Shown piece after piece: positions 314 through 10,665 of a stretch of 64,000 bases of DNA. Under the pieces are notes generated by a model. That model did no database searches and was not told where the DNA came from. It saw only the letters and a program-made list of their open reading frames with translations. The DNA lies in the NCBI RefSeq assembly GCF_964204865.1, contig NC_135258.1:16960916-17024915 (forward strand), read 5' to 3'. Each line of letters starts with the position of its first letter. Within the stretch, counting starts at the first letter, position 1. Both the position numbers and the translations under genes were made by a program. This stretch comes from Styela clava (lineage: Eukaryota).

Positions 314-1576
314 TTACGAAACAAAAAATATATCTTGCAATATTTGGGAATCGTCATCACATGGCAATGCGCTCTGTAATGTACTAACATTAATGGATGT
401 TCTTAGATTTGATTCTTGCATGGATGGATGTGCAGGTAGTTTTGAACGCGACAACTCTTCTGTAACATAAAGAGAATCAGTTTCTAAGTCTTGAGTTAGC
501 AAATGTAAAATTTGTTCCGGTGAGTTTCTAGTTTGCCGCAAAGTGCTGTTGCTTGAATTAGAAGATGTCAAAGTTTTTGGAGGAGTTGAATTACTGATAC
601 TTTTGGATGGAGAGATATAAGATACGCTTTCTTTCATTGGAATTGGAGATAGAGTTTGTATGGGAATTGATTTTTTCTTTAACGAGGATGGAGGGCCGGT
701 TGATTTATCCACATAATTTCTAACAGGTGGAGATTGATCTAACTCTGGCTCTAAGCCTTCCTTCATGAGAAGTAACTTCCGCAAATTTTCTTGTTCTTTT
801 TTTAATAATCTCTTTTTCTTTTTTAAAAACAATTTGTATTGTTGATCGGTCATCTGCAACACATCATCTTCTGTTAAACTTGAATTAGAAGTATGTTCGT
901 CATACGCATCATTCACTCTGATCTCATCTGATGTTACTTCATCAGTGCCAGTTATAATGGATTCCGTCATCTGAGACGATGATTCTACAGGTTTTTCATA
1001 ATTTGTCGAAGAGGATTCTGACTGTGCTTTAGACTCCTCCCTGGCAAGAAGTGTGGTTTGCTGCATGGTGATTAAATTTTGATAATATTGAAGCAATGTT
1101 TGGCATTGTTTTACCTCTTCCGCTAAAAATTGTTGCTTACTCATAAGAGCTCTTTTTTCTTCCTCCATTTGTCTTACTTGCATGACAAATTTATGTCTCT
1201 CATCATTGAGGGCGAGAACAATATTTTCTTTTTCTTCTCCAACTTTTGCGAGTTCTTGTATTAAGTGAGCAATTCTTTGTTTATCCTGGGGATTGAGATC
1301 TTTGAGAGTAACGCCATCATCGCTTTTAATAACACTATCTCCACCTTCCACCAATTTTTCAGGTACCAGTATTGACTTCTGTACTTTAGTACTACTTTTA
1401 TTTTTCAAAGGTGTTTTCTCTTGTTTATTAACAGTGATATTTTTCGTATGATTCCGTATTTTAGATGTATCATTACTCTTTCTCCTTGACCTTCTATTTT
1501 CTCTATCACTTATACGCTTTGTTTTTGGTTCAGAGTCAGTTGCATCTTCCCAGAAAATGTCACTACAGGACAGCAT
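314..1576 (-). CDS. single-exon ORF, 420 aa, coiled-coil N-terminal half then Ser/Thr/Pro-rich C-terminal half; uncharacterised
   Basis: Uninterrupted 1,263-nt ORF with a true ATG (1574-1576) and stop at 314-316 in AT-rich DNA, where a chance ORF this long is improbable. Heptad-like charged region (…IAHLIQELAKVGEEKEN…QMEEEKRALMSKQQFLAEEVKQ…) and basic patch KKKKRLLKKEQENLRK. I do not recognise the family by eye. Confidence 0.5.
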   Translation of the reverse strand: MLSCSDIFWEDATDSEPKTKRISDRENRRSRRKSNDTSKIRNHTKNITVNKQEKTPLKNKSSTKVQKSILVPEKLVEGGDSVIKSDDGVTLKDLNPQDKQRIAHLIQELAKVGEEKENIVLALNDERHKFVMQVRQMEEEKRALMSKQQFLAEEVKQCQTLLQYYQNLITMQQTTLLAREESKAQSESSSTNYEKPVESSSQMTESIITGTDEVTSDEIRVNDAYDEHTSNSSLTEDDVLQMTDQQYKLFLKKKKRLLKKEQENLRKLLLMKEGLEPELDQSPPVRNYVDKSTGPPSSLKKKSIPIQTLSPIPMKESVSYISPSKSISNSTPPKTLTSSNSSNSTLRQTRNSPEQILHLLTQDLETDSLYVTEELSRSKLPAHPSMQESNLRTSINVSTLQSALPCDDDSQILQDIFFVS

Positions 1577-4500: not shown

Positions 4501-5264
4501 AGAAAACAGCAACTATAGCCAGCATAAAAATCCTAACTTTTTGACTATTCATATTTAAAATCCGAAAACAATAGAAAATTTTTTTTTTGGAAAATGCAAC
4601 AAAATATTGTATTTGTATTTTAGAGAAACTAAGCTAAACATTGATACAAAACTAACAGAACATCGCAAAAATGAAAACCTCTCAAATTATCTCATTAATT
4701 ATACGAAGCAAAAGTCTAGTGTAATCTATCATGGAAAGCCAGTTTGATTTCAAAATTAAAACATCGAAAGAAAAATACTGTTATGTCAATGCAATGTGTC
4801 AAAAAAAAAAGTTTGAAAACATGATGTATGAATTAATATGAAAACCAAAATAAAAAAACTTAAATGTAGCTATACAATATTGGCAAAATAAACTGCTATA
4901 ATTAATACGCTGTAGACATGTAATTTGTACCAACTACCAATACCAATCCCACAAAAACTTTCCTCATAGCAGCTAATTACTCAGATACAAAAATTTTACC
5001 CTAAGGATGTCTGCATCTGAATATTCGGGTACAATGGAATTCCAACTTCCAAGATCGAAATGAATATATTTTGTGAAATATCAAACCAAATTTAATTGAG
5101 ACAAACCATGATTTTAACACGAAACAGTAAATTTTACTTAAAAAATACAGTAATTGTATTCTTATTTCAAATCATAATCATCTCGTTTAAAATGTAATAA
5201 AAATGTAGTATAATAAATCAGGTACGAGGGATAAAATAAAAAAAAAGCATGAAATAATTATGCA

Positions 5265-8200
5265 TTATACACTCGTTTCATTTCTGAGAGGAAGTGAATG
5301 TGACCCGACAGTGTTCGTACTTCCTTTCAATTGAAAACTACTTTCTGAAATAATATTGTCATCGTCGACTATTGTATCATCATGGGATGATAATATTAAA
5401 TCCAAATCTTTTTCCGATTCCTCTGAATTTATTACATTATTAGATTTGTTAATATTTAGTTTGTCTAAATTTTGAGTCTCCGTAACAATAGGTCTGTCTG
5501 AATCTGTCTTATCATAAAGTAAAAAAGGATTTGCATTTTGTAACTGCTGTAATGTTAAATACCCATGATTTTCTGATTTTGCTGGAACATTAGTCCTACT
5601 ACCAACAACTGGTGATAACCTTTCAATGTTATTAGCTGTTGTTAAATTCGATGAAGAATCATCTATCTTTGTAGAGACATTTTCTGCTTGATGTAGGTTT
5701 CTTTCGACGCGGCTTCTACTTTTTTCACTCGACGTTGTGTCCCTTTCTCTTTCCGATAGAGTAGAATTGTGACTGCGTCTCATGTTTTGTTTCGCTCGCT
5801 TTGTGGCTTGACCATTTTTATCTGCTGCTAAACCTTTAAGATGACGATGTTGACCATTTGATTCTCCTCGTTTCACTCTTCTGTTAGGTTTGCTGTGAGA
5901 TTTTTGTGTGTCATGTTTTTTATTAGATGGTGAATGTATTAAAAGAGTTCTGTATTTTGATGCGCTACTGTTATCAATACCATTCATATTATTCCCAGTA
6001 CTTTCCACTCCATTACAATTCACAGATTTTTCTGGAGATTGTATTAGTGGACTCGCCTCATTGATATTGCCTTCTTTCTGACTTATATCCTCATTACTGG
6101 TGAGGGGATCTTGAGCATATTCTCGAAGAACGTTGAGTTTTTTCTGTCTGGCTCTTTTGTGTTCGAGTGCTTTTCTCATTCTCTGATATCTATTGTAGAA
6201 CAAAGCATTGTCAATTTTCGGCTGTGTGTGATGTTGCATAACAACAGGAATCGTGTGCATGTTGTTATGTGCTATTTCATCAAAACTATGTTCCGTCATG
6301 CTAGAATCATGTGTCATGTGTAAATTAGTCATTTTTACAGGTTTATTATGTTGTTGGTGTGTGTGACCAAGATGTCCCGTGTGGTGGTTATGGTACCCAT
6401 GATGGTAATGGTGTGAATCTGCCATGTAACTTCTCGAATTCATTGCCATACAATGATCGTGAGAATACGGGTGGTGCAAATGTCCATGACTGGGTGAATG
6501 ACCTCTGAAACTAGCATTTAGAGCATGATCAGAGTGTTTGATAACACAGCCACTATGCATAGAAGTAATGGATTTGGCAGCACGCTCAATCTGGTGGTCC
6601 ACGCAAGGTAAATGGCCACTTTCATACATATTTTGCATATTATGGGGTGAAATACCACTATTATCTCTTGATAATTGTCTGAAATTAACACTTCCACTGT
6701 GAGCTATTTGTTCATCTTCTACTGTTGTAGAGTTGAAAATAGTCTCCATTGTAGTTGGATCTGTTTTATCAGTGTACATTTGATGTTCCCTTTGGTTTTT
6801 CTTATTTCCACATGGCGTAGATGTTTTATCATGAACCGAAGAACGGAAATCATCTGCATGTTCACCTGCTGCATCAAAATGATCACTTTCTGTATTCAAT
6901 GGTGCTGAAGTAGCTTGCGATTGTAAATCGGCATTTCTTTTGTATCCTTTTCTAGCTCGCTTGCAAGATGAACAAATGTAATTCCATGATGACCTGACAT
7001 CTCTTCGACAAATTAAATGCTGTATAAGTAAAAATACACCCATTATTATCGCCATTACTGCATAAGCATATGAAAATACTTCACCAGAAGTTGAAGTTGA
7101 TCCTTGTTGCCAGATTGCAAAATCCATGAATTCAGTTTCATATTGATCTTCATGTGAAAATTTATCCTGCATACCCGGAGCAGCAACTGACAATGCAGCA
7201 GCAACCCAAGTCATAATAAAGAAAACAAACAGCAAAGCAACACCAGTAAGCTGAGTTTTAAAACTTTGTTCATTCGAACGAGAAACTTGAAAACTGGGCG
7301 ATGTCACCGAACCACCGATTACTGCATTGTTGACTTGTGTGGAATAATGAAGCGAACTATCTTCATCTAAATTCCTACTGCATATCGCTTGATACCGATC
7401 TCCACCATTTGCCACTCTTGTATTTCCTTGCCATGATGAACGTGCAAGTGGGGAACTGGGACTGTCATCTTGTCTGGAGTGTTGATTGAGGGCACACAAT
7501 ACTCTTATCAACAAAATAACACAAACCACTGCTATCAAAAAAGCAGGCAAGTAAAAGGCAAAAATACTGGTTTCCCATGACAACCAACAATACTCCCTGT
7601 GCTTCCCAATATCACCGCTATAATTTTGAACTTTGGCAGCAGCTGTGATTCCACAAATCACTGTTGGAATCCCACATCCAATAAGATAAAACCTTAGCAT
7701 TGGTCTGGGTGGTTTTGGTTCAGCAGAAGGTGGTCTACTATGAATAACCAATTCTTTGTGAATATTTTTTGCACTAATTGTAATCCATAACAAAATTGAC
7801 AATGATGCATAGTGTAGAACGATTCCACATGCCAAGCACATAGCTTTGTAATCTACCCGCCAAATCCCGAGAGCAAAAGCACAAGAGACAAGTAACATAT
7901 GTCCACATATGTTAACAAGCATATGTCTAGAGTCTGACGATATTTTCAGTTTACTTGAACAGCAAATGTAACTCATTATAATTACAATGAGGCATGCATT
8001 GAGAATTCCTGTGCCTGCAAATACTGCTGGATGTGCCAGATTTGCCAATGACCATGGGTTGGAAGAATCAGCGACAGAAGATGGATCATATAATATCGTT
8101 ACAACAGACAATTTCTTGCATCTAACATAGGTGTAGTTCCTGTTGAAACGTTGTGGCGAAGCTATACAACTCTCGTCTTTTACCCAACCACGATCTCGAG

Positions 8201-10211
8201 ACCAAACTGCGGGACCATGAGATCCTGTGTGAGTAGTTTTAAATTTGAAACTAATTGGGTCAGAGAGATTAGAAACATTGCAACCACTAACTCCAGTTTC
8301 CAGAACAATATTCTGTGTTATTGAGTTTGAATTTCCAAAGGTTGTGTTCGATAAGCTGTCTATACTATCCAGAAATTTTTGTTGAAATAGGCTCCCATTT
8401 CTATAGGCAATGAAGTAAAGCTTATATTGGCCAGTTGGACTTTCTCCACATGAATTAAGAAGGGATTTTGGCAAAGACACAGAAGATTGCATTTCTTGGC
8501 GTTTAAATTGAGATGTCTTACATTCAAATTTGAAGTTTTTAATACCGCTTGAAACCTTACATGTCAATCCATTACCTTCTTTATTATATTGTGACTTACT
8601 CTCCATCATAAATCCACTCACTGCGATATTTTCAGAAGCATCGCTGAACTCTGCAGAAGATGTTCCTTTCAGTGCATAGCTTCTTACAACTTTCAAAATT
8701 TTATCGCACGCTCCAGAAGCTTTTTGTGCCTCTCTTAAAAGAGATGCATTGGCATTCATAGCATAGCTTGCTAATCCCAATATTTCATCGCCCAAATCAT
8801 GCCTGTTGCCATGAACCATAACATCCATCAATCTTTCCATTAGCTGACTGATTAACTGGACAGTGAGAGATTCTGTGATGGGTGTGGGAACTTGAAGCAA
8901 GCCAAGATTCCTTATCAACTCCTGAACTAAAGATTCTGCATTACGTGATGTAATATCTTTTAAAGAATTGTGTATCAATCTAGTTGCCTTGCTTTTGTAA
9001 GGGCAGTGGTCATAATGCTCCAATGACCAATTCCCACTGGAACAGCTTCGATATGCCTTGTTAATATGCATTTCACCAGGCATACTTCGTGATAATGGGC
9101 ATTTGATGGACTTTGTTATGCCAGATACCGTTGAGTTCCACGTAAAGTCACCTCTGTTATTTTCAACTTCCCTTCTAGGGCAGTAACTAGAATTATGACT
9201 TATGACTATAATTCTGATAACTCTATTTTCACTTCCATGTTCTGATGAAACCATACAACTCCAATTTCCACTGTGATTCTTAGAGAGATTTTTTATCTGT
9301 AAGAATCCCATAATAATTGGTTCATACTTGCTGATGGCTGCATTTTTTACAATCAGGTTTTCGTCACTCAGATTAATAGATATTCTGTTGAAACTCCAAG
9401 TTATTTCAGACGTTGGCAAATTTGTACCTTCACATTGCATAAAGAATTCATCACCTTCAAAAACTAATTGATGGGAATCCGGTGTTATTTCAAAATAGGG
9501 CAAACTTGATAATGTATTATTTGCATCACATACAAAATCATCCGTAGTCAAGCTACGAAGCGAACGTCCCCTCAAACTTAGGGGTAAGTGACAAGTTCCA
9601 TATACTCTTACTGGAGGGTCTTTCGTATCGATCCAGATTTTGAAATCATGCATAAGGCAGTTGCAAACAAAATCAGTAGATTTCACATACAATTTTCTTA
9701 ATTTTGGAAGATTCGAAAATGAATCTCCAGGAATTATGGGAAATATGTTTAAGGAAAGGTCCAGAACTTCCAGACTTGGTAAACCCTCAAACATATCGGC
9801 GGATAAATGTCCAATGCTGTTTGAACTCAAATTCAGTCGTGTCAAATTTGTAAAAATTGAAAACGATTTTGGAGATATTCTTGAAATTTTATTGTTTGAC
9901 ATATCCAACTTTATAACTTGTTTTAATATTTCAAGTGTGTGAAGTTTTTCTCCAAAAATATCTTTATTTATTTCTTTCAAATCATTATCAGTAAGATCTA
10001 TGGAAAGTAAGACAATGTCGTCTGGAAATTCCGCATTAGCAAACATGTCAGCAATATTGATTCTGTGACAGTCCATTTTCTTGCCTTGTATCTTGGACTG
10101 TCGTGACTTGTTCCTGCAGCCGCATGACGTGTGGTAATTGAGAACACATCCATTTGACAGAGATGCAAGTAATAGGATCACAGGCAGTAATATCTCGGGG
10201 AACTCCATCAT
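5265..10211 (-). CDS. adhesion GPCR, ADGRA (GPR124/GPR125)-like, intronless, 1,648 aa
   Basis: Single ORF. The track start 10223 is TTG; the first ATGs are at 10209-10211 and 10206-10208 (MMEF…). Signal peptide EFPEILLPVILLLASLSNG. LRR repeats (LxxLxLxxNxI…) plus LRRCT (CNC…FVCD). Ig-like domain (QCEGT…ITW…GNWSCMV). Hormone-receptor motif CPRREVENNRGDFTW…C…GNWS…C. GPS-like CIASPQRFNRNYTYVRCKKLSVVTILYD. Seven hydrophobic helices (about 6990-8045 on +) with a long ICL3. 500-aa tail ending ETSV. Confidence 0.85.
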   Translation of the reverse strand: MMEFPEILLPVILLLASLSNGCVLNYHTSCGCRNKSRQSKIQGKKMDCHRINIADMFANAEFPDDIVLLSIDLTDNDLKEINKDIFGEKLHTLEILKQVIKLDMSNNKISRISPKSFSIFTNLTRLNLSSNSIGHLSADMFEGLPSLEVLDLSLNIFPIIPGDSFSNLPKLRKLYVKSTDFVCNCLMHDFKIWIDTKDPPVRVYGTCHLPLSLRGRSLRSLTTDDFVCDANNTLSSLPYFEITPDSHQLVFEGDEFFMQCEGTNLPTSEITWSFNRISINLSDENLIVKNAAISKYEPIIMGFLQIKNLSKNHSGNWSCMVSSEHGSENRVIRIIVISHNSSYCPRREVENNRGDFTWNSTVSGITKSIKCPLSRSMPGEMHINKAYRSCSSGNWSLEHYDHCPYKSKATRLIHNSLKDITSRNAESLVQELIRNLGLLQVPTPITESLTVQLISQLMERLMDVMVHGNRHDLGDEILGLASYAMNANASLLREAQKASGACDKILKVVRSYALKGTSSAEFSDASENIAVSGFMMESKSQYNKEGNGLTCKVSSGIKNFKFECKTSQFKRQEMQSSVSLPKSLLNSCGESPTGQYKLYFIAYRNGSLFQQKFLDSIDSLSNTTFGNSNSITQNIVLETGVSGCNVSNLSDPISFKFKTTHTGSHGPAVWSRDRGWVKDESCIASPQRFNRNYTYVRCKKLSVVTILYDPSSVADSSNPWSLANLAHPAVFAGTGILNACLIVIIMSYICCSSKLKISSDSRHMLVNICGHMLLVSCAFALGIWRVDYKAMCLACGIVLHYASLSILLWITISAKNIHKELVIHSRPPSAEPKPPRPMLRFYLIGCGIPTVICGITAAAKVQNYSGDIGKHREYCWLSWETSIFAFYLPAFLIAVVCVILLIRVLCALNQHSRQDDSPSSPLARSSWQGNTRVANGGDRYQAICSRNLDEDSSLHYSTQVNNAVIGGSVTSPSFQVSRSNEQSFKTQLTGVALLFVFFIMTWVAAALSVAAPGMQDKFSHEDQYETEFMDFAIWQQGSTSTSGEVFSYAYAVMAIIMGVFLLIQHLICRRDVRSSWNYICSSCKRARKGYKRNADLQSQATSAPLNTESDHFDAAGEHADDFRSSVHDKTSTPCGNKKNQREHQMYTDKTDPTTMETIFNSTTVEDEQIAHSGSVNFRQLSRDNSGISPHNMQNMYESGHLPCVDHQIERAAKSITSMHSGCVIKHSDHALNASFRGHSPSHGHLHHPYSHDHCMAMNSRSYMADSHHYHHGYHNHHTGHLGHTHQQHNKPVKMTNLHMTHDSSMTEHSFDEIAHNNMHTIPVVMQHHTQPKIDNALFYNRYQRMRKALEHKRARQKKLNVLREYAQDPLTSNEDISQKEGNINEASPLIQSPEKSVNCNGVESTGNNMNGIDNSSASKYRTLLIHSPSNKKHDTQKSHSKPNRRVKRGESNGQHRHLKGLAADKNGQATKRAKQNMRRSHNSTLSERERDTTSSEKSRSRVERNLHQAENVSTKIDDSSSNLTTANNIERLSPVVGSRTNVPAKSENHGYLTLQQLQNANPFLLYDKTDSDRPIVTETQNLDKLNINKSNNVINSEESEKDLDLILSSHDDTIVDDDNIISESSFQLKGSTNTVGSHSLPLRNETSV

Positions 10212-10310
10212 ACTAATGATCAAGAAGTCATGAGCAGTTTAATGGCTGCCACAAATGTGTTATAGTTATCACGTTATCATTTCAACCATAATTATATTTA
10301 AACATTAATT

Positions 10311-10665
10311 CTAGGATAAGATAGGATTTACATATTTATCCCGGGGGAGAGGAAAGGCGATAAGACGGCTTAATCATATGGCGAACCACGGCCTCTCACC
10401 CGGTTACCAGTCCAGGTCGGGTATGGGATTAGATAGCCAGTTATTTGTTCTGGAAAGCATGGACTTGACTTGGACTTAATGGTGGAGGAAGCCGTAACCG
10501 ACCAGTGGTTACGTGAACCACCCTGCGGCGGCGAGGAGTCCAGCAATGCTCTCGCACATGATCATCCCTGCATGGGATTCGAACCGGCGAACCCACGAAG
10601 GGTAATTAGAGATGCGGTGAGGAGCGTATTTCTAACGCTTAGCACGATAGCCACACCGCCGAGCC
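10311..10665 (-). mobile_element. tRNA-derived SINE, family A, full-length copy
   Basis: Read on the minus strand: GGCTCGGCGGTGTGGCTATCGTGCTAAGCG…GGTTCGAATCCCATGCAGGG (pol III A box, perfect B box), then a body with GGGTGGTTCACGTAACC…GGTTACGGCTTCCTCCACC, ending in the tail GGATAAATATGTAAATCCTATCTTATCC. Related copies at 11899-12097, 20741-21005, 25129-25432, 31760-31865 and 36690-36800. Confidence 0.7.

What the first reader, a model, noticed from the sequence alone, without database searches (positions are those of the whole stretch)
6240..6570. His-rich tract in the cytoplasmic tail of the aGPCR
An approximately 100-residue segment (…GHSPSHGHLHHPYSHDHCMAMNSRSYMADSHHYHHGYHNHHTGHLGHTHQQHNK…MTHDSS…MQHHTQ) contains about 30 His, including HHYHHGYHNHH. 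I am not aware of such a tract as a described feature of ADGRA tails. His clusters of this density usually indicate divalent-metal (Zn/Ni/Cu) binding or pH-sensing behaviour. It lies between the 7TM and the PDZ ligand, a good position to modulate scaffold binding.
Basis: seen in the sequence. Interest (0 to 1): 0.55.

Follow-up and report, generated by a model that had tools for sequence, protein, structure and literature searches.

The report
Histidine-rich linker in sea-squirt ADGRA tail
The cytoplasmic tail of a sea-squirt (Styela clava) adhesion receptor of the GPR124/125 family really does contain an unusually histidine-dense, disordered stretch that evolution has kept. Similar stretches recur in this receptor family, so it is a modest curiosity with an untested metal- or pH-sensing function, not a new kind of system.

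Summary
Window 6240-6570 (minus strand) encodes aa 1218-1328 of a 1652-aa uninterrupted ORF. That ORF is identical to the annotated Styela clava 'adhesion GPCR A3-like' protein. The stretch holds 26 His in 111 aa and 10 in the densest 20, far beyond chance, with no DNA repeat behind it.

- **A true His/Tyr/Gly-rich block**, aa 1240-1293.
- **The start of a chordate-conserved tail module** (KxTNL, TEHS, MHxxPV, a basic helix, LREYA), whose few His are ordinary conserved residues.

The His block fills a slot just upstream of KxTNL that is His-free in vertebrate ADGRA3. It carries 14-18 His per 60 aa in Styela and three close relatives, and 6-9 in Clavelina, Phallusia and Ciona. It evolves under purifying selection (dN/dS about 0.1-0.2, with synonymous CAT/CAC changes at invariant His). 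AlphaFold predicts it disordered.

His-rich stretches recur elsewhere in ADGRA tails: teleost ADGRA1 in the same slot, amphioxus, and spiralians at other positions. So this is the extreme of a family-wide tendency.

Function is unproven. Metal or proton titration of a disordered linker next to the conserved helix is my preferred reading. Interest is low to moderate.

The parts
5265..10223 (-). Single uninterrupted ORF of 1652 aa from a TTG. The NCBI model starts at MMEF, window 10211, giving 1648 aa. It is the Styela clava ADGRA (GPR124/125-type) adhesion GPCR.
   Evidence: ORF list. Pfam LRR_8, Ig_3 and 7tm_2. 100% identity to P0001 'adhesion G protein-coupled receptor A3-like [Styela clava]'.
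7005..8036 (-). Seven-transmembrane domain, about aa 730-1073.
   Evidence: Pfam 7tm_2 covers aa 737-925. A 7TM profile built from five ascidian orthologues ends at P0001 residue 1069, which is ORF aa 1073.
5268..7004 (-). Cytoplasmic tail of 579 aa, with 8.1% His against 2.7% in the rest of the protein.
   Evidence: His positions are listed.
6228..6644 (-). Statistically best His-biased tract, aa 1194-1332: 31 His in 139 aa.
   Evidence: fLPS-style scan, P = 4e-21 at a 2.4% background.
6345..6506 (-). The true His/Tyr/Gly-rich block, aa 1240-1293: RGHSPSHGHLHHPYSHDHCMAMNSRSYMADSHHYHHGYHNHHTGHLGHTHQQHN. It has 18 His, 6 Ser, 5 Gly and 4 Tyr in 54 aa. It occupies a slot that is His-free in vertebrate ADGRA3.
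   Evidence: Composition. Alignments. dN/dS of 0.09-0.18 among three relatives. pLDDT below 50 and no secondary structure.
6381..6407 (-). Best-conserved core motif YHHGYHNHH, aa 1273-1281. The same residues occur in Styela and three relatives apart from a one-residue insertion (YHH-I-GYHNHH). Looser Tyr/His versions occur in Ciona (WGYHGYGQHYY), Clavelina and Phallusia.
   Evidence: Codon alignment with synonymous TAC/TAT and CAT/CAC differences. Upstream strings.
6090..6344 (-). Chordate-conserved tail module, aa 1294-1378: KPVKMTNLH, DSSMTEHSFDE, MHTIPVVMQ, a basic helix, LNVLREYAQDPLTSNE.
   Evidence: Alignment with vertebrate ADGRA3 and ADGRA1. Amino-acid identity of 0.72 between Styela and relative P0002, and dN/dS of 0.01-0.04 among relatives.
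6117..6206 (-). Predicted basic amphipathic helix ALFYNRYQRMRKALEHKRARQKKLNVLREY, aa 1340-1369. It is the only confidently folded element in the 198-aa segment modelled.
   Evidence: AlphaFold2 on alignment A3: helix at residues 153-182 of the segment, block pLDDT 87-93.
5268..5279 (-). C-terminal ETSV, a class I PDZ-binding motif. The stop codon is at 5265-5267.
   Evidence: ORF translation. ET[ST][VL] is conserved in all ascidian and most other ADGRA homologues.

Best explanation
**What it is.** The tract is a real, translated, intrinsically disordered His/Tyr/Gly-rich linker in the cytoplasmic tail of the Styela clava ADGRA (GPR124/125-type) adhesion GPCR. It sits about 170 residues after TM7. 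It lies immediately upstream of the chordate-conserved KxTNL-TEHS-MHxxPV-helix-LREYA module, and about 360 residues before the ETSV PDZ ligand.

**How it arose.** It is not a slippage repeat. It is a selectively maintained block that is modest in all ascidians found (6-9 His per 60 aa in Ciona, Phallusia and Clavelina). It is intensified to 14-18 per 60 aa in the clade of Styela and three unnamed relatives. More broadly it is the extreme example of a recurrent tendency of ADGRA tails to be His-rich.

**How it most likely works (inferred, not shown).** The clustered imidazoles (HxH, HH, HxxH) form a low-affinity, reversible binding surface for divalent metals such as Zn2+, and for protons near neutral pH. 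Binding would collapse or recharge the disordered linker. That would change how the adjacent conserved helix and module, and the distal PDZ ligand, are presented to scaffold partners such as Dlg or Dishevelled, or to the membrane.

**Confidence.** The figure of 0.5 is for the whole statement. The descriptive part (real, coding, conserved, disordered, part of a family trend) I hold at about 0.9. The metal/proton-switch mechanism I hold at about 0.35.
For: **Shown.**
- Density and significance.
- No DNA repeats, and mixed His codons.
- The tract lies inside a 4.9-kb ORF identical to the annotated protein.
- Seven ascidian orthologues have a His/Tyr-rich stretch in the same slot: 18, 17, 15, 14, 9, 6 and 6 His per 60 aa. 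The figure is 0-3 in 20 vertebrate ADGRA3.
- Orthology is supported by conserved gene order with a KIAA1328-like neighbour and by an NJ tree.
- Purifying selection. dN/dS is 0.09-0.18 in the block among three relatives, 0.13-0.20 in the 7TM domain and 0.29-0.41 in the distal tail.
- Ten columns are His in all four species, and seven of them carry synonymous codon differences.
- Styela-to-relative identity is 0.49 in the block, against 0.34 and 0.28 in the flanking tail.
- Predicted disorder in the block (pLDDT below 50), next to one confident helix.
- Family-wide trend. Tail versus non-tail His is 6.4 vs 2.8% in ascidians, 7.3 vs 4.0% in ADGRA1, 4.4 vs 2.6% in ADGRA3 and 5.0 vs 2.5% in other invertebrates.
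- Teleost ADGRA1 carries HxHxH runs in the same slot, up to 13 per 60 aa.

**Inferred from general knowledge.** Clustered His in cytosolic loops of ZIP and ZnT transporters binds Zn2+. ADGRA tails bind Dlg and Dvl through ETTV and an internal motif (PMC9171404).
Against: - No experiment or computation here shows metal or proton binding. Composition alone is weak evidence.
- The block lacks long (HX)n alternation and has no His run longer than two.
- The only Cys in the block (C1258) is replaced by Tyr in one relative, which argues against a fixed Cys/His zinc site.
- Positional conservation outside the Styela clade is weak. Only two His columns are invariant across five ascidians. What is conserved more widely is composition, and that can also arise from relaxed but biased evolution.
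- dS among the relatives is near saturation (0.6-1.9), so the dN/dS values are approximate.
- I could not measure how common His-rich disordered regions are in the Styela proteome.
Confidence: 0.5

Rival explanations
1. The block is a neutral, compositionally biased low-complexity filler. It is a tolerated His-rich spacer in a long disordered tail, produced by drift or codon slippage, and has no specific function.
For: The segment is predicted disordered. His-rich stretches appear at different positions in different ADGRA lineages, which suggests easy gain and loss. Across all ascidians only two His columns are invariant. Shark ADGRA1 has 3 His in the slot where teleosts have up to 13.
Against: There is no tandem or direct DNA repeat, and codons are mixed. 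dN/dS of 0.09-0.18 is as low as in the 7TM domain and lower than in the distal tail. Ten His columns are invariant across four species, with synonymous changes in seven. The YHH(I)GYHNHH motif keeps the same residues despite about 46% overall identity.
Confidence: 0.2
2. The block is a His/Tyr 'sticker' region. It drives pH-tunable self-association or condensate partitioning of the receptor tail, for example clustering with Dlg or Dvl scaffolds. Metal binding would not be needed.
For: The block is enriched in His, Tyr and Gly (18 H, 5 G, 4 Y in 54 aa). Tyr is co-conserved with His across ascidians: YHHGYH, WGYHGYGQHYY, YHYEHHY. His-rich squid beak proteins phase-separate through His/Tyr contacts (PMC6884462, found). 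Dvl-based oligomerising scaffolds act on ADGRA tails (PMC9171404).
Against: There is only one short block of 54 aa, whereas the beak proteins have many tandem GHGxY repeats. No repeats are present here. There are no data on self-association.
Confidence: 0.15
3. The block contains a short linear motif for a specific protein partner, with YHH(I)GYHNHH and its flanks as the candidate site. It could be phosphotyrosine-dependent. On this reading the His richness is incidental to the motif.
For: The nine-residue core keeps the same residues in four species, and the flanking SHD.C and R.Y positions are also conserved. The block abuts the strongly conserved KxTNL module. ADGRA tails are known to carry internal partner-binding motifs (PMC9171404).
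Against: The motif is not conserved in sequence in Ciona, Phallusia or Clavelina; only its composition is. It matches no Pfam family or solved structure. A single motif does not explain 18 His spread over 54 aa.
Confidence: 0.1
4. The tract is an artefact: a misassembled simple repeat, an unannotated intron, or a frameshifted region that is never translated.
For: None found.
Against: The tract lies in frame in an uninterrupted 4,959-nt ORF, flanked on both sides by residues conserved from ascidians to vertebrates. There is no repeat. The annotated Styela protein includes it. Independent assemblies of three relatives, plus the Ciona, Phallusia and Clavelina proteins, carry the homologous stretch.
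Confidence: 0.02

Closest known systems
Vertebrate ADGRA3/GPR125 and ADGRA2/GPR124 cytoplasmic tails
   Same: They share the architecture LRR-Ig-GAIN-7TM-long tail-PDZ ligand. ADGRA3 shares the full tail module KxTNL, [ST][LM]TEHS.D, MH..PV..Q, basic stretch, L.VLREYA.D..TS. The ADGRA2 tails examined keep KLTNL but lack the rest of the module. The C-terminus is ET[ST]V. In vertebrates these tails recruit Dlg, Magi and Dvl (PMC9171404; PMC9539791, listed).
   Different: The 60 aa upstream of KLTNL hold a median of 0 His in ADGRA3 and 2 in ADGRA2, against 18 in Styela. The ascidian linker between TM7 and KxTNL is about 220 aa, against about 70 aa. The Styela gene is one uninterrupted ORF.
Vertebrate ADGRA1/GPR123-type tails, especially in teleosts
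   Same: The tail is His-rich overall (median 7.3%). Several teleosts have an HxHxH-type stretch in the same slot just upstream of CKL[TS].L. An example is Astyanax: GHTHAH..THGHSHAHSHAHCH..SHSHSHGLCKLSGM, 13 His per 60 aa.
   Different: The pattern is alternating (HX)n plus many Cys, not His/Tyr/Gly. Shark and gar ADGRA1 have only 3-4 His there, so the enrichments are probably independent. ADGRA1 also has a separate conserved Cys/His cluster, CH.LCH[RH]H[VI]CC[AT]K, which is absent from Styela.
Cytosolic His-rich (HX)n loops of ZIP (SLC39) and ZnT (SLC30) zinc transporters
   Same: Both are disordered, cytosolic, His-dense segments of a polytopic membrane protein. In the transporters such loops bind Zn2+ and regulate transport or endocytosis (my own knowledge; related papers are listed).
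   Different: There is no homology and the protein is not a transporter. Styela has only short HxH or HH units, not a long (HX)n run. Metal binding is untested here.
[quoted passage not shown]
   Same: The composition is similar (His, Gly, Tyr). pH-dependent His/Tyr interactions drive their assembly (PMC6884462).
   Different: HBPs are extracellular structural proteins with many tandem GHGxY repeats. Here there is a single 54-aa non-repetitive intracellular block.

Membership tests
ADGRA subfamily of adhesion GPCRs (GPR123/124/125) | N-terminal leucine-rich repeats followed by an Ig-like domain | tested here: met
   Pfam LRR_8 (E = 2.6e-19, aa 125-184) and Ig_3 (E = 4.7e-08, aa 242-326).
ADGRA subfamily of adhesion GPCRs (GPR123/124/125) | Secretin/adhesion-type 7TM domain whose closest relatives are ADGRA1-3 | tested here: met
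   7tm_2 at E = 6.4e-16. The best non-tunicate hits are all named ADGRA3, A1 or A2. An NJ tree places the ascidian clade beside amphioxus and vertebrate ADGRA.
ADGRA subfamily of adhesion GPCRs (GPR123/124/125) | GAIN domain (ADGRA type) and hormone-receptor motif between the Ig domain and the 7TM | tested here: inconclusive
   PF26588 (GAIN_ADGRA3) is in the precomputed Pfam list for P0001. My own hmmscan at E <= 0.01 listed neither GAIN nor HRM for the Styela protein. HRM (PF02793) is listed for the Phallusia orthologue.
ADGRA subfamily of adhesion GPCRs (GPR123/124/125) | Long cytoplasmic tail ending in a class I PDZ ligand (ETTV-like), with the KLTNL..TEHS..LREYA tail module | tested here: met
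   The protein ends in ETSV. The module aligns with vertebrate ADGRA3 and ADGRA1.
(HX)n His-rich metal-binding loops of ZIP/ZnT transporters | Alternating (HX)n run, n about 3-6 or more, in a cytosolic loop | tested here: inconclusive
   The location is cytosolic by topology. The sequence has short units only (SHGHLHH, HDH, GHLGHTH, HHYHH, NHH) and no long alternation. Amphioxus and teleost ADGRA1 tails do have long HxHxH runs.
(HX)n His-rich metal-binding loops of ZIP/ZnT transporters | Demonstrated Zn2+ (or other divalent metal) binding | not testable with these tools
   This needs ITC, ICP-MS or NMR on the recombinant segment.
(HX)n His-rich metal-binding loops of ZIP/ZnT transporters | Homology to the SLC39 or SLC30 fold | tested here: not met
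   No such Pfam hit. The host protein is an adhesion GPCR.
Homopolymeric poly-His tracts (five or more consecutive His, nuclear-speckle type) | An uninterrupted His run of five or more | tested here: not met
   The longest run in Styela is HH. The relatives have HHHH at most.
Tandem-repeat His-rich structural proteins (squid beak HBP type) | Multiple tandem GHGxY-like peptide repeats | tested here: not met
   No tandem or direct repeats at the DNA level. There is a single 54-aa block.

The most novel reading that the evidence does not exclude
ADGRA-family adhesion GPCRs carry a recurrent, positively maintained cytosolic His-rich sensor. It takes the form of a His/Tyr block in ascidians, HxHxH runs and a Cys/His cluster in ADGRA1, and His/Arg blocks in spiralians. 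This sensor would bind Zn2+ or protons and couple intracellular metal or pH status to Dlg/Dishevelled scaffolding and to planar-polarity or Wnt signalling. That regulatory input has not been described for any adhesion GPCR.
Probability: 0.1. Interest if true: 0.6.

Novelty: new member of a known kind. Interest (0 to 1): 0.3.

Why it matters
If the block really titrates metal ions or protons, it would give the ADGRA receptors (GPR123/124/125) a previously unrecognised intracellular input. These receptors act in planar cell polarity, Wnt7 signalling and synapse function, mainly through their tails. The comparative pattern found here gives natural variants for testing this: His-free ADGRA3, His-rich ADGRA1, and graded ascidian blocks. 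If it does not, the tract is one more conserved compositionally biased linker. In that case the useful by-product is a clearer map of the conserved ADGRA tail module next to it.

Tried and rejected
- **DNA repeats.** TRF and direct-repeat searches over 5200-7200 and 6100-6700 found nothing relevant. The simple-repeat or misassembly idea is rejected.
- **First homologue search.** The full-length query was swamped by LRR proteins and returned only two ascidian relatives.
- **Second homologue search.** The 7TM-plus-tail query of 691 aa returned only vertebrate ADGRA of 459-1205 aa and missed even the self hit. The tool seems to restrict hits by length.
- **Searches that worked.** A profile search of the representative library, and a third search with a five-ascidian alignment, recovered Phallusia, Ciona and two more relatives.
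- **Solved structures.** A profile search of the PDB with the tail alignment gave only chance-level internalin hits, E >= 0.15.
- **Pfam.** It finds no domain in the tail.
- **AlphaFold2.** The 198-aa segment gave only one confident helix. The model is too disordered (pTM 0.23) for a fold search, so none was run.
- **A fixed Cys/His zinc site.** I considered one, built on columns invariant in three ascidians. I dropped it because the Cys is Tyr in one relative, and only two His columns stay invariant once Phallusia and another relative are added.
- **Literature.** Searches for 'ADGRA3 + histidine-rich' and 'ADGRA1/GPR123 + histidine' found no paper that mentions histidine together with these receptors.
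- **Unnamed relatives.** I could not name the three Logan-assembly relatives (SRR32906212, SRR23343704, SRR25569784). I call them the Styela clade only on the strength of an NJ tree.
Full report
**What is there.**
- Window 5265-10223 (minus strand) is one uninterrupted ORF of 1652 aa.
- It has Pfam LRR_8, Ig_3 and 7tm_2 domains and ends in ETSV.
- It is 100% identical over its length to the annotated 'adhesion G protein-coupled receptor A3-like [Styela clava]' protein, P0001. The window therefore comes from the ascidian Styela clava, and the gene is already annotated.
- The finding's coordinates, 6240-6570, encode aa 1218-1328. That is well after TM7, which ends near aa 1073, and about 320 residues before the C-terminal PDZ ligand.

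**Checking the observation.**
- The segment holds 26 His in 111 aa, and the best 110-aa window holds 28.
- The densest 20 aa, SHHYHHGYHNHHTGHLGHTH, holds 10.
- The rest of the protein has 3.25% His. Against that, the binomial probability corrected for window positions is about 3e-12.
- In 2000 shuffles of the protein, no 111-aa window exceeded 16 His.
- A scan in the style of the fLPS composition-bias tool places the optimal His-biased tract at aa 1194-1332 (window 6228-6644). It has 31 His in 139 aa, P = 4e-21. The remainder of the tail has only 4.1% His, so the bias is local and not a property of the whole tail.
- Tandem Repeats Finder (TRF) and a direct-repeat search find no repeat behind it.
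- His codons are mixed, CAT:CAC = 15:11.

**Anatomy: the tract is composite.** I aligned the tail with vertebrate ADGRA3 and ADGRA1.
In vertebrates it reads KLTNLQ ... DNSLTEHSVDN.IKMHVAPLEVQ ... RLTVLREYAYDVPTS.
- Its His residues (TEHS, MH) are ordinary conserved positions.
- The true His-rich block is aa 1240-1293 (window 6345-6506), with 18 His, 6 Ser, 5 Gly and 4 Tyr in 54 aa.
- It fills a slot immediately upstream of KxTNL. In vertebrate ADGRA3 that slot is Ser-rich and essentially His-free.
- AlphaFold2, run on a 15-sequence alignment, predicts the block to be disordered (pLDDT below 50, no secondary structure).
- The only confident element is a basic helix at aa 1340-1369, ALFYNRYQRMRKALEHKRARQKKLNVLREY.
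- Neither the PDB nor Pfam has anything matching the tail.

**Is it lineage-specific?** The searches recovered six other ascidian orthologues:
- Clavelina lepadiformis
- Phallusia mammillata
- Ciona intestinalis
- three unnamed sequences from Logan assemblies

Two of the unnamed ones lie on genomic contigs with the same downstream KIAA1328-like neighbour as in the window, which supports orthology. An NJ tree groups them with Styela, opposite Clavelina, Ciona and Phallusia.

| Group | His in the 60 aa upstream of KxTNL |
|---|---|
| Styela clava | 18 |
| Three unnamed relatives | 17, 15, 14 |
| Clavelina | 9 |
| Phallusia | 6 |
| Ciona | 6 |
| 20 vertebrate ADGRA3 tails | median 0 |
| 52 vertebrate ADGRA2 tails | median 2 |

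A Tyr/His-rich stretch in this slot is therefore common to all ascidians found (YHHGYHNHH, WGYHGYGQHYY, YHYEHHY, HQFYRHHY), and it is strongly intensified in the Styela clade.

**Is it constrained?** I built a codon alignment of Styela and the three relatives.
- Ten columns are His in all four species. Seven of them carry synonymous CAT/CAC differences.
- The nine-residue core YHH(I)GYHNHH keeps the same residues in all four, although overall identity is only about 46%.
- Styela-to-relative amino-acid identity is 0.49 in the block, against 0.34 and 0.28 in the flanking tail.
- dS is close to saturation, so the dN/dS ratios are approximate. The direction is clear: the block is maintained by selection and did not arise by recent slippage.

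| Region | dN/dS among the three relatives (Nei-Gojobori) |
|---|---|
| His block | 0.09-0.18 |
| 7TM domain | 0.13-0.20 |
| Conserved tail module | 0.01-0.04 |
| Distal tail | 0.29-0.41 |

**Wider context.** His enrichment is a recurrent property of ADGRA tails.

| Group | Median tail His % | Median non-tail His % |
|---|---|---|
| Ascidians | 6.4 | 2.8 |
| Vertebrate ADGRA1 | 7.3 | 4.0 |
| Vertebrate ADGRA3 | 4.4 | 2.6 |
| Other invertebrate homologues | 5.0 | 2.5 |
| Vertebrate ADGRA2 | 3.5 | 3.5 |

- Teleost ADGRA1-type tails carry HxHxH runs in the very same slot upstream of CKL[TS].L, up to 13 per 60 aa in Astyanax. Shark and gar have only 3-4 there, which suggests independent gains.
- Amphioxus has HTHTHSHSHSHS.
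- Owenia, Lineus, Octopus, oyster and Patella have a His/Arg block at a different place, just before a KSLxWE..FK..YAYVNH motif near the C-terminus.
- Among the 199 tails scored, Styela has the densest window, 17 per 50 aa and 10 per 20 aa.
- The Styela tract is therefore the extreme of a family tendency and not a singular invention.
- I found no paper that mentions histidine together with ADGRA3 or ADGRA1.

**Mechanism.** Nothing here tests function.
- Shown: the block is translated, cytosolic by topology, disordered by prediction, under purifying selection, and adjacent to the most conserved part of the tail.
- Inferred: clustered imidazoles of this kind bind divalent metals. Zn2+ binding by the cytosolic His-rich loops of ZIP and ZnT transporters is my own knowledge (related papers are listed). 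They also titrate near neutral pH.
- A metal- or proton-driven collapse or charge change of the linker could alter how the neighbouring helix and module, and the distal ETSV ligand, meet scaffold proteins.
- In vertebrates, ADGRA tails work through exactly such partners: an internal Dvl-binding region, and ETTV binding of Dlg4 and Magi3 (PMC9171404).
- I prefer this reading but give the mechanistic step only modest probability.

**Rivals.**
- A His/Tyr sticker for pH-tunable self-association, by analogy with squid beak proteins (PMC6884462). The block is single and non-repetitive, which weakens the analogy.
- A short linear partner-binding motif centred on YHH(I)GYHNHH. It is conserved only within the Styela clade.
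- A neutral filler. The selection signal disfavours this.
- An artefact, which is excluded.
- I also considered and dropped a fixed Cys/His zinc site, because the Cys is not conserved.

**Verdict.**
The protein, topology and non-repeat nature are right. The tract's boundaries and its uniqueness need revision. The function is untested.
- It is a new example of a known kind of feature, a His-rich disordered cytosolic segment, in a family where it has not been described.
- Interest is low to moderate.
- The most useful outcome is a testable comparative series (His-free ADGRA3, His-rich ADGRA1, graded ascidian blocks) and a sharper map of the conserved ADGRA tail module.

Noticed in passing
window 5265-10223 (minus); L002 208-4740; L003 4731-9284: The ADGRA gene is a single uninterrupted 4.9-kb ORF in Styela. 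It is called as one contiguous gene on the genomic contigs of two relatives. To my knowledge vertebrate ADGRA genes are multi-exon, so the gene looks intronless in this ascidian clade, possibly through retroposition or intron loss.
   Followed up: partly
window about 320-1318 (minus): A KIAA1328-like gene lies just downstream of the receptor on the same strand (tblastn E = 1e-46 to 1e-50). The gene order is the same on contigs L002 and L003 of two relatives, so microsynteny is conserved.
   Followed up: partly
window 6090-6344 (minus), aa 1294-1378: The tail module KxTNL, [ST][LM]TEHS.D, MH..PV..Q, basic helix, L.VLREYA.D..TS is conserved from ascidians to vertebrate ADGRA3 and, in part, ADGRA1. 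AlphaFold gives a confident helix at aa 1340-1369. Spiralian ADGRA3 seems to keep a related SNINLVP..S.TE.S..FYNPRQNG.AKK.W stretch. I did not find its function described.
   Followed up: partly
proteins P0370-P0375, P0204, P0208, P0383 (vertebrate ADGRA1-type tails): ADGRA1-type tails carry a conserved Cys/His cluster, CH.LCH[RH]H[VI]CC[AT]K, plus PH[VI]H[LV]HA and H[VI]HRC motifs. This looks like a possible zinc-binding site. Several proteins that NCBI names 'A3' (Megalops, Chanos, Conger) have ADGRA1-type tails ending GNIRTGPWRNETTV.
   Followed up: no
proteins P0218 (Owenia), P0244 (Lineus), P0229 (Octopus), P0211 (oyster cluster), P0207 (Patella): Spiralian ADGRA3 homologues share a His/Arg-rich block directly before a conserved KSL.WE..FK...YAYVNH.Y motif near the C-terminus. 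Owenia has 19 His in 50 aa there.
   Followed up: no
P0229 (Octopus) about aa 735-745; P0002 about aa 920: His runs also occur in what is probably the third intracellular loop: HHHHHHHHHH in Octopus and NHHHHP in one Styela relative.
   Followed up: no
window 5538-5567 (minus), aa 1553-1562: A short motif, HGYLTLQQLQ, in the distal tail has H, Y and T invariant in all five ascidians aligned. The surrounding sequence is otherwise poorly conserved.
   Followed up: no
window 10350-10650: GC content rises to 0.48-0.53 just upstream of the ORF start, against a 0.35 background. This may be a promoter or 5' UTR region.
   Followed up: no
L001 both ends: The Logan contig that carries P0002 begins and ends with Nextera adapter sequence (CTGTCTCTTATACACATCT and its complement). 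The contig ends are therefore library artefacts.
   Followed up: no
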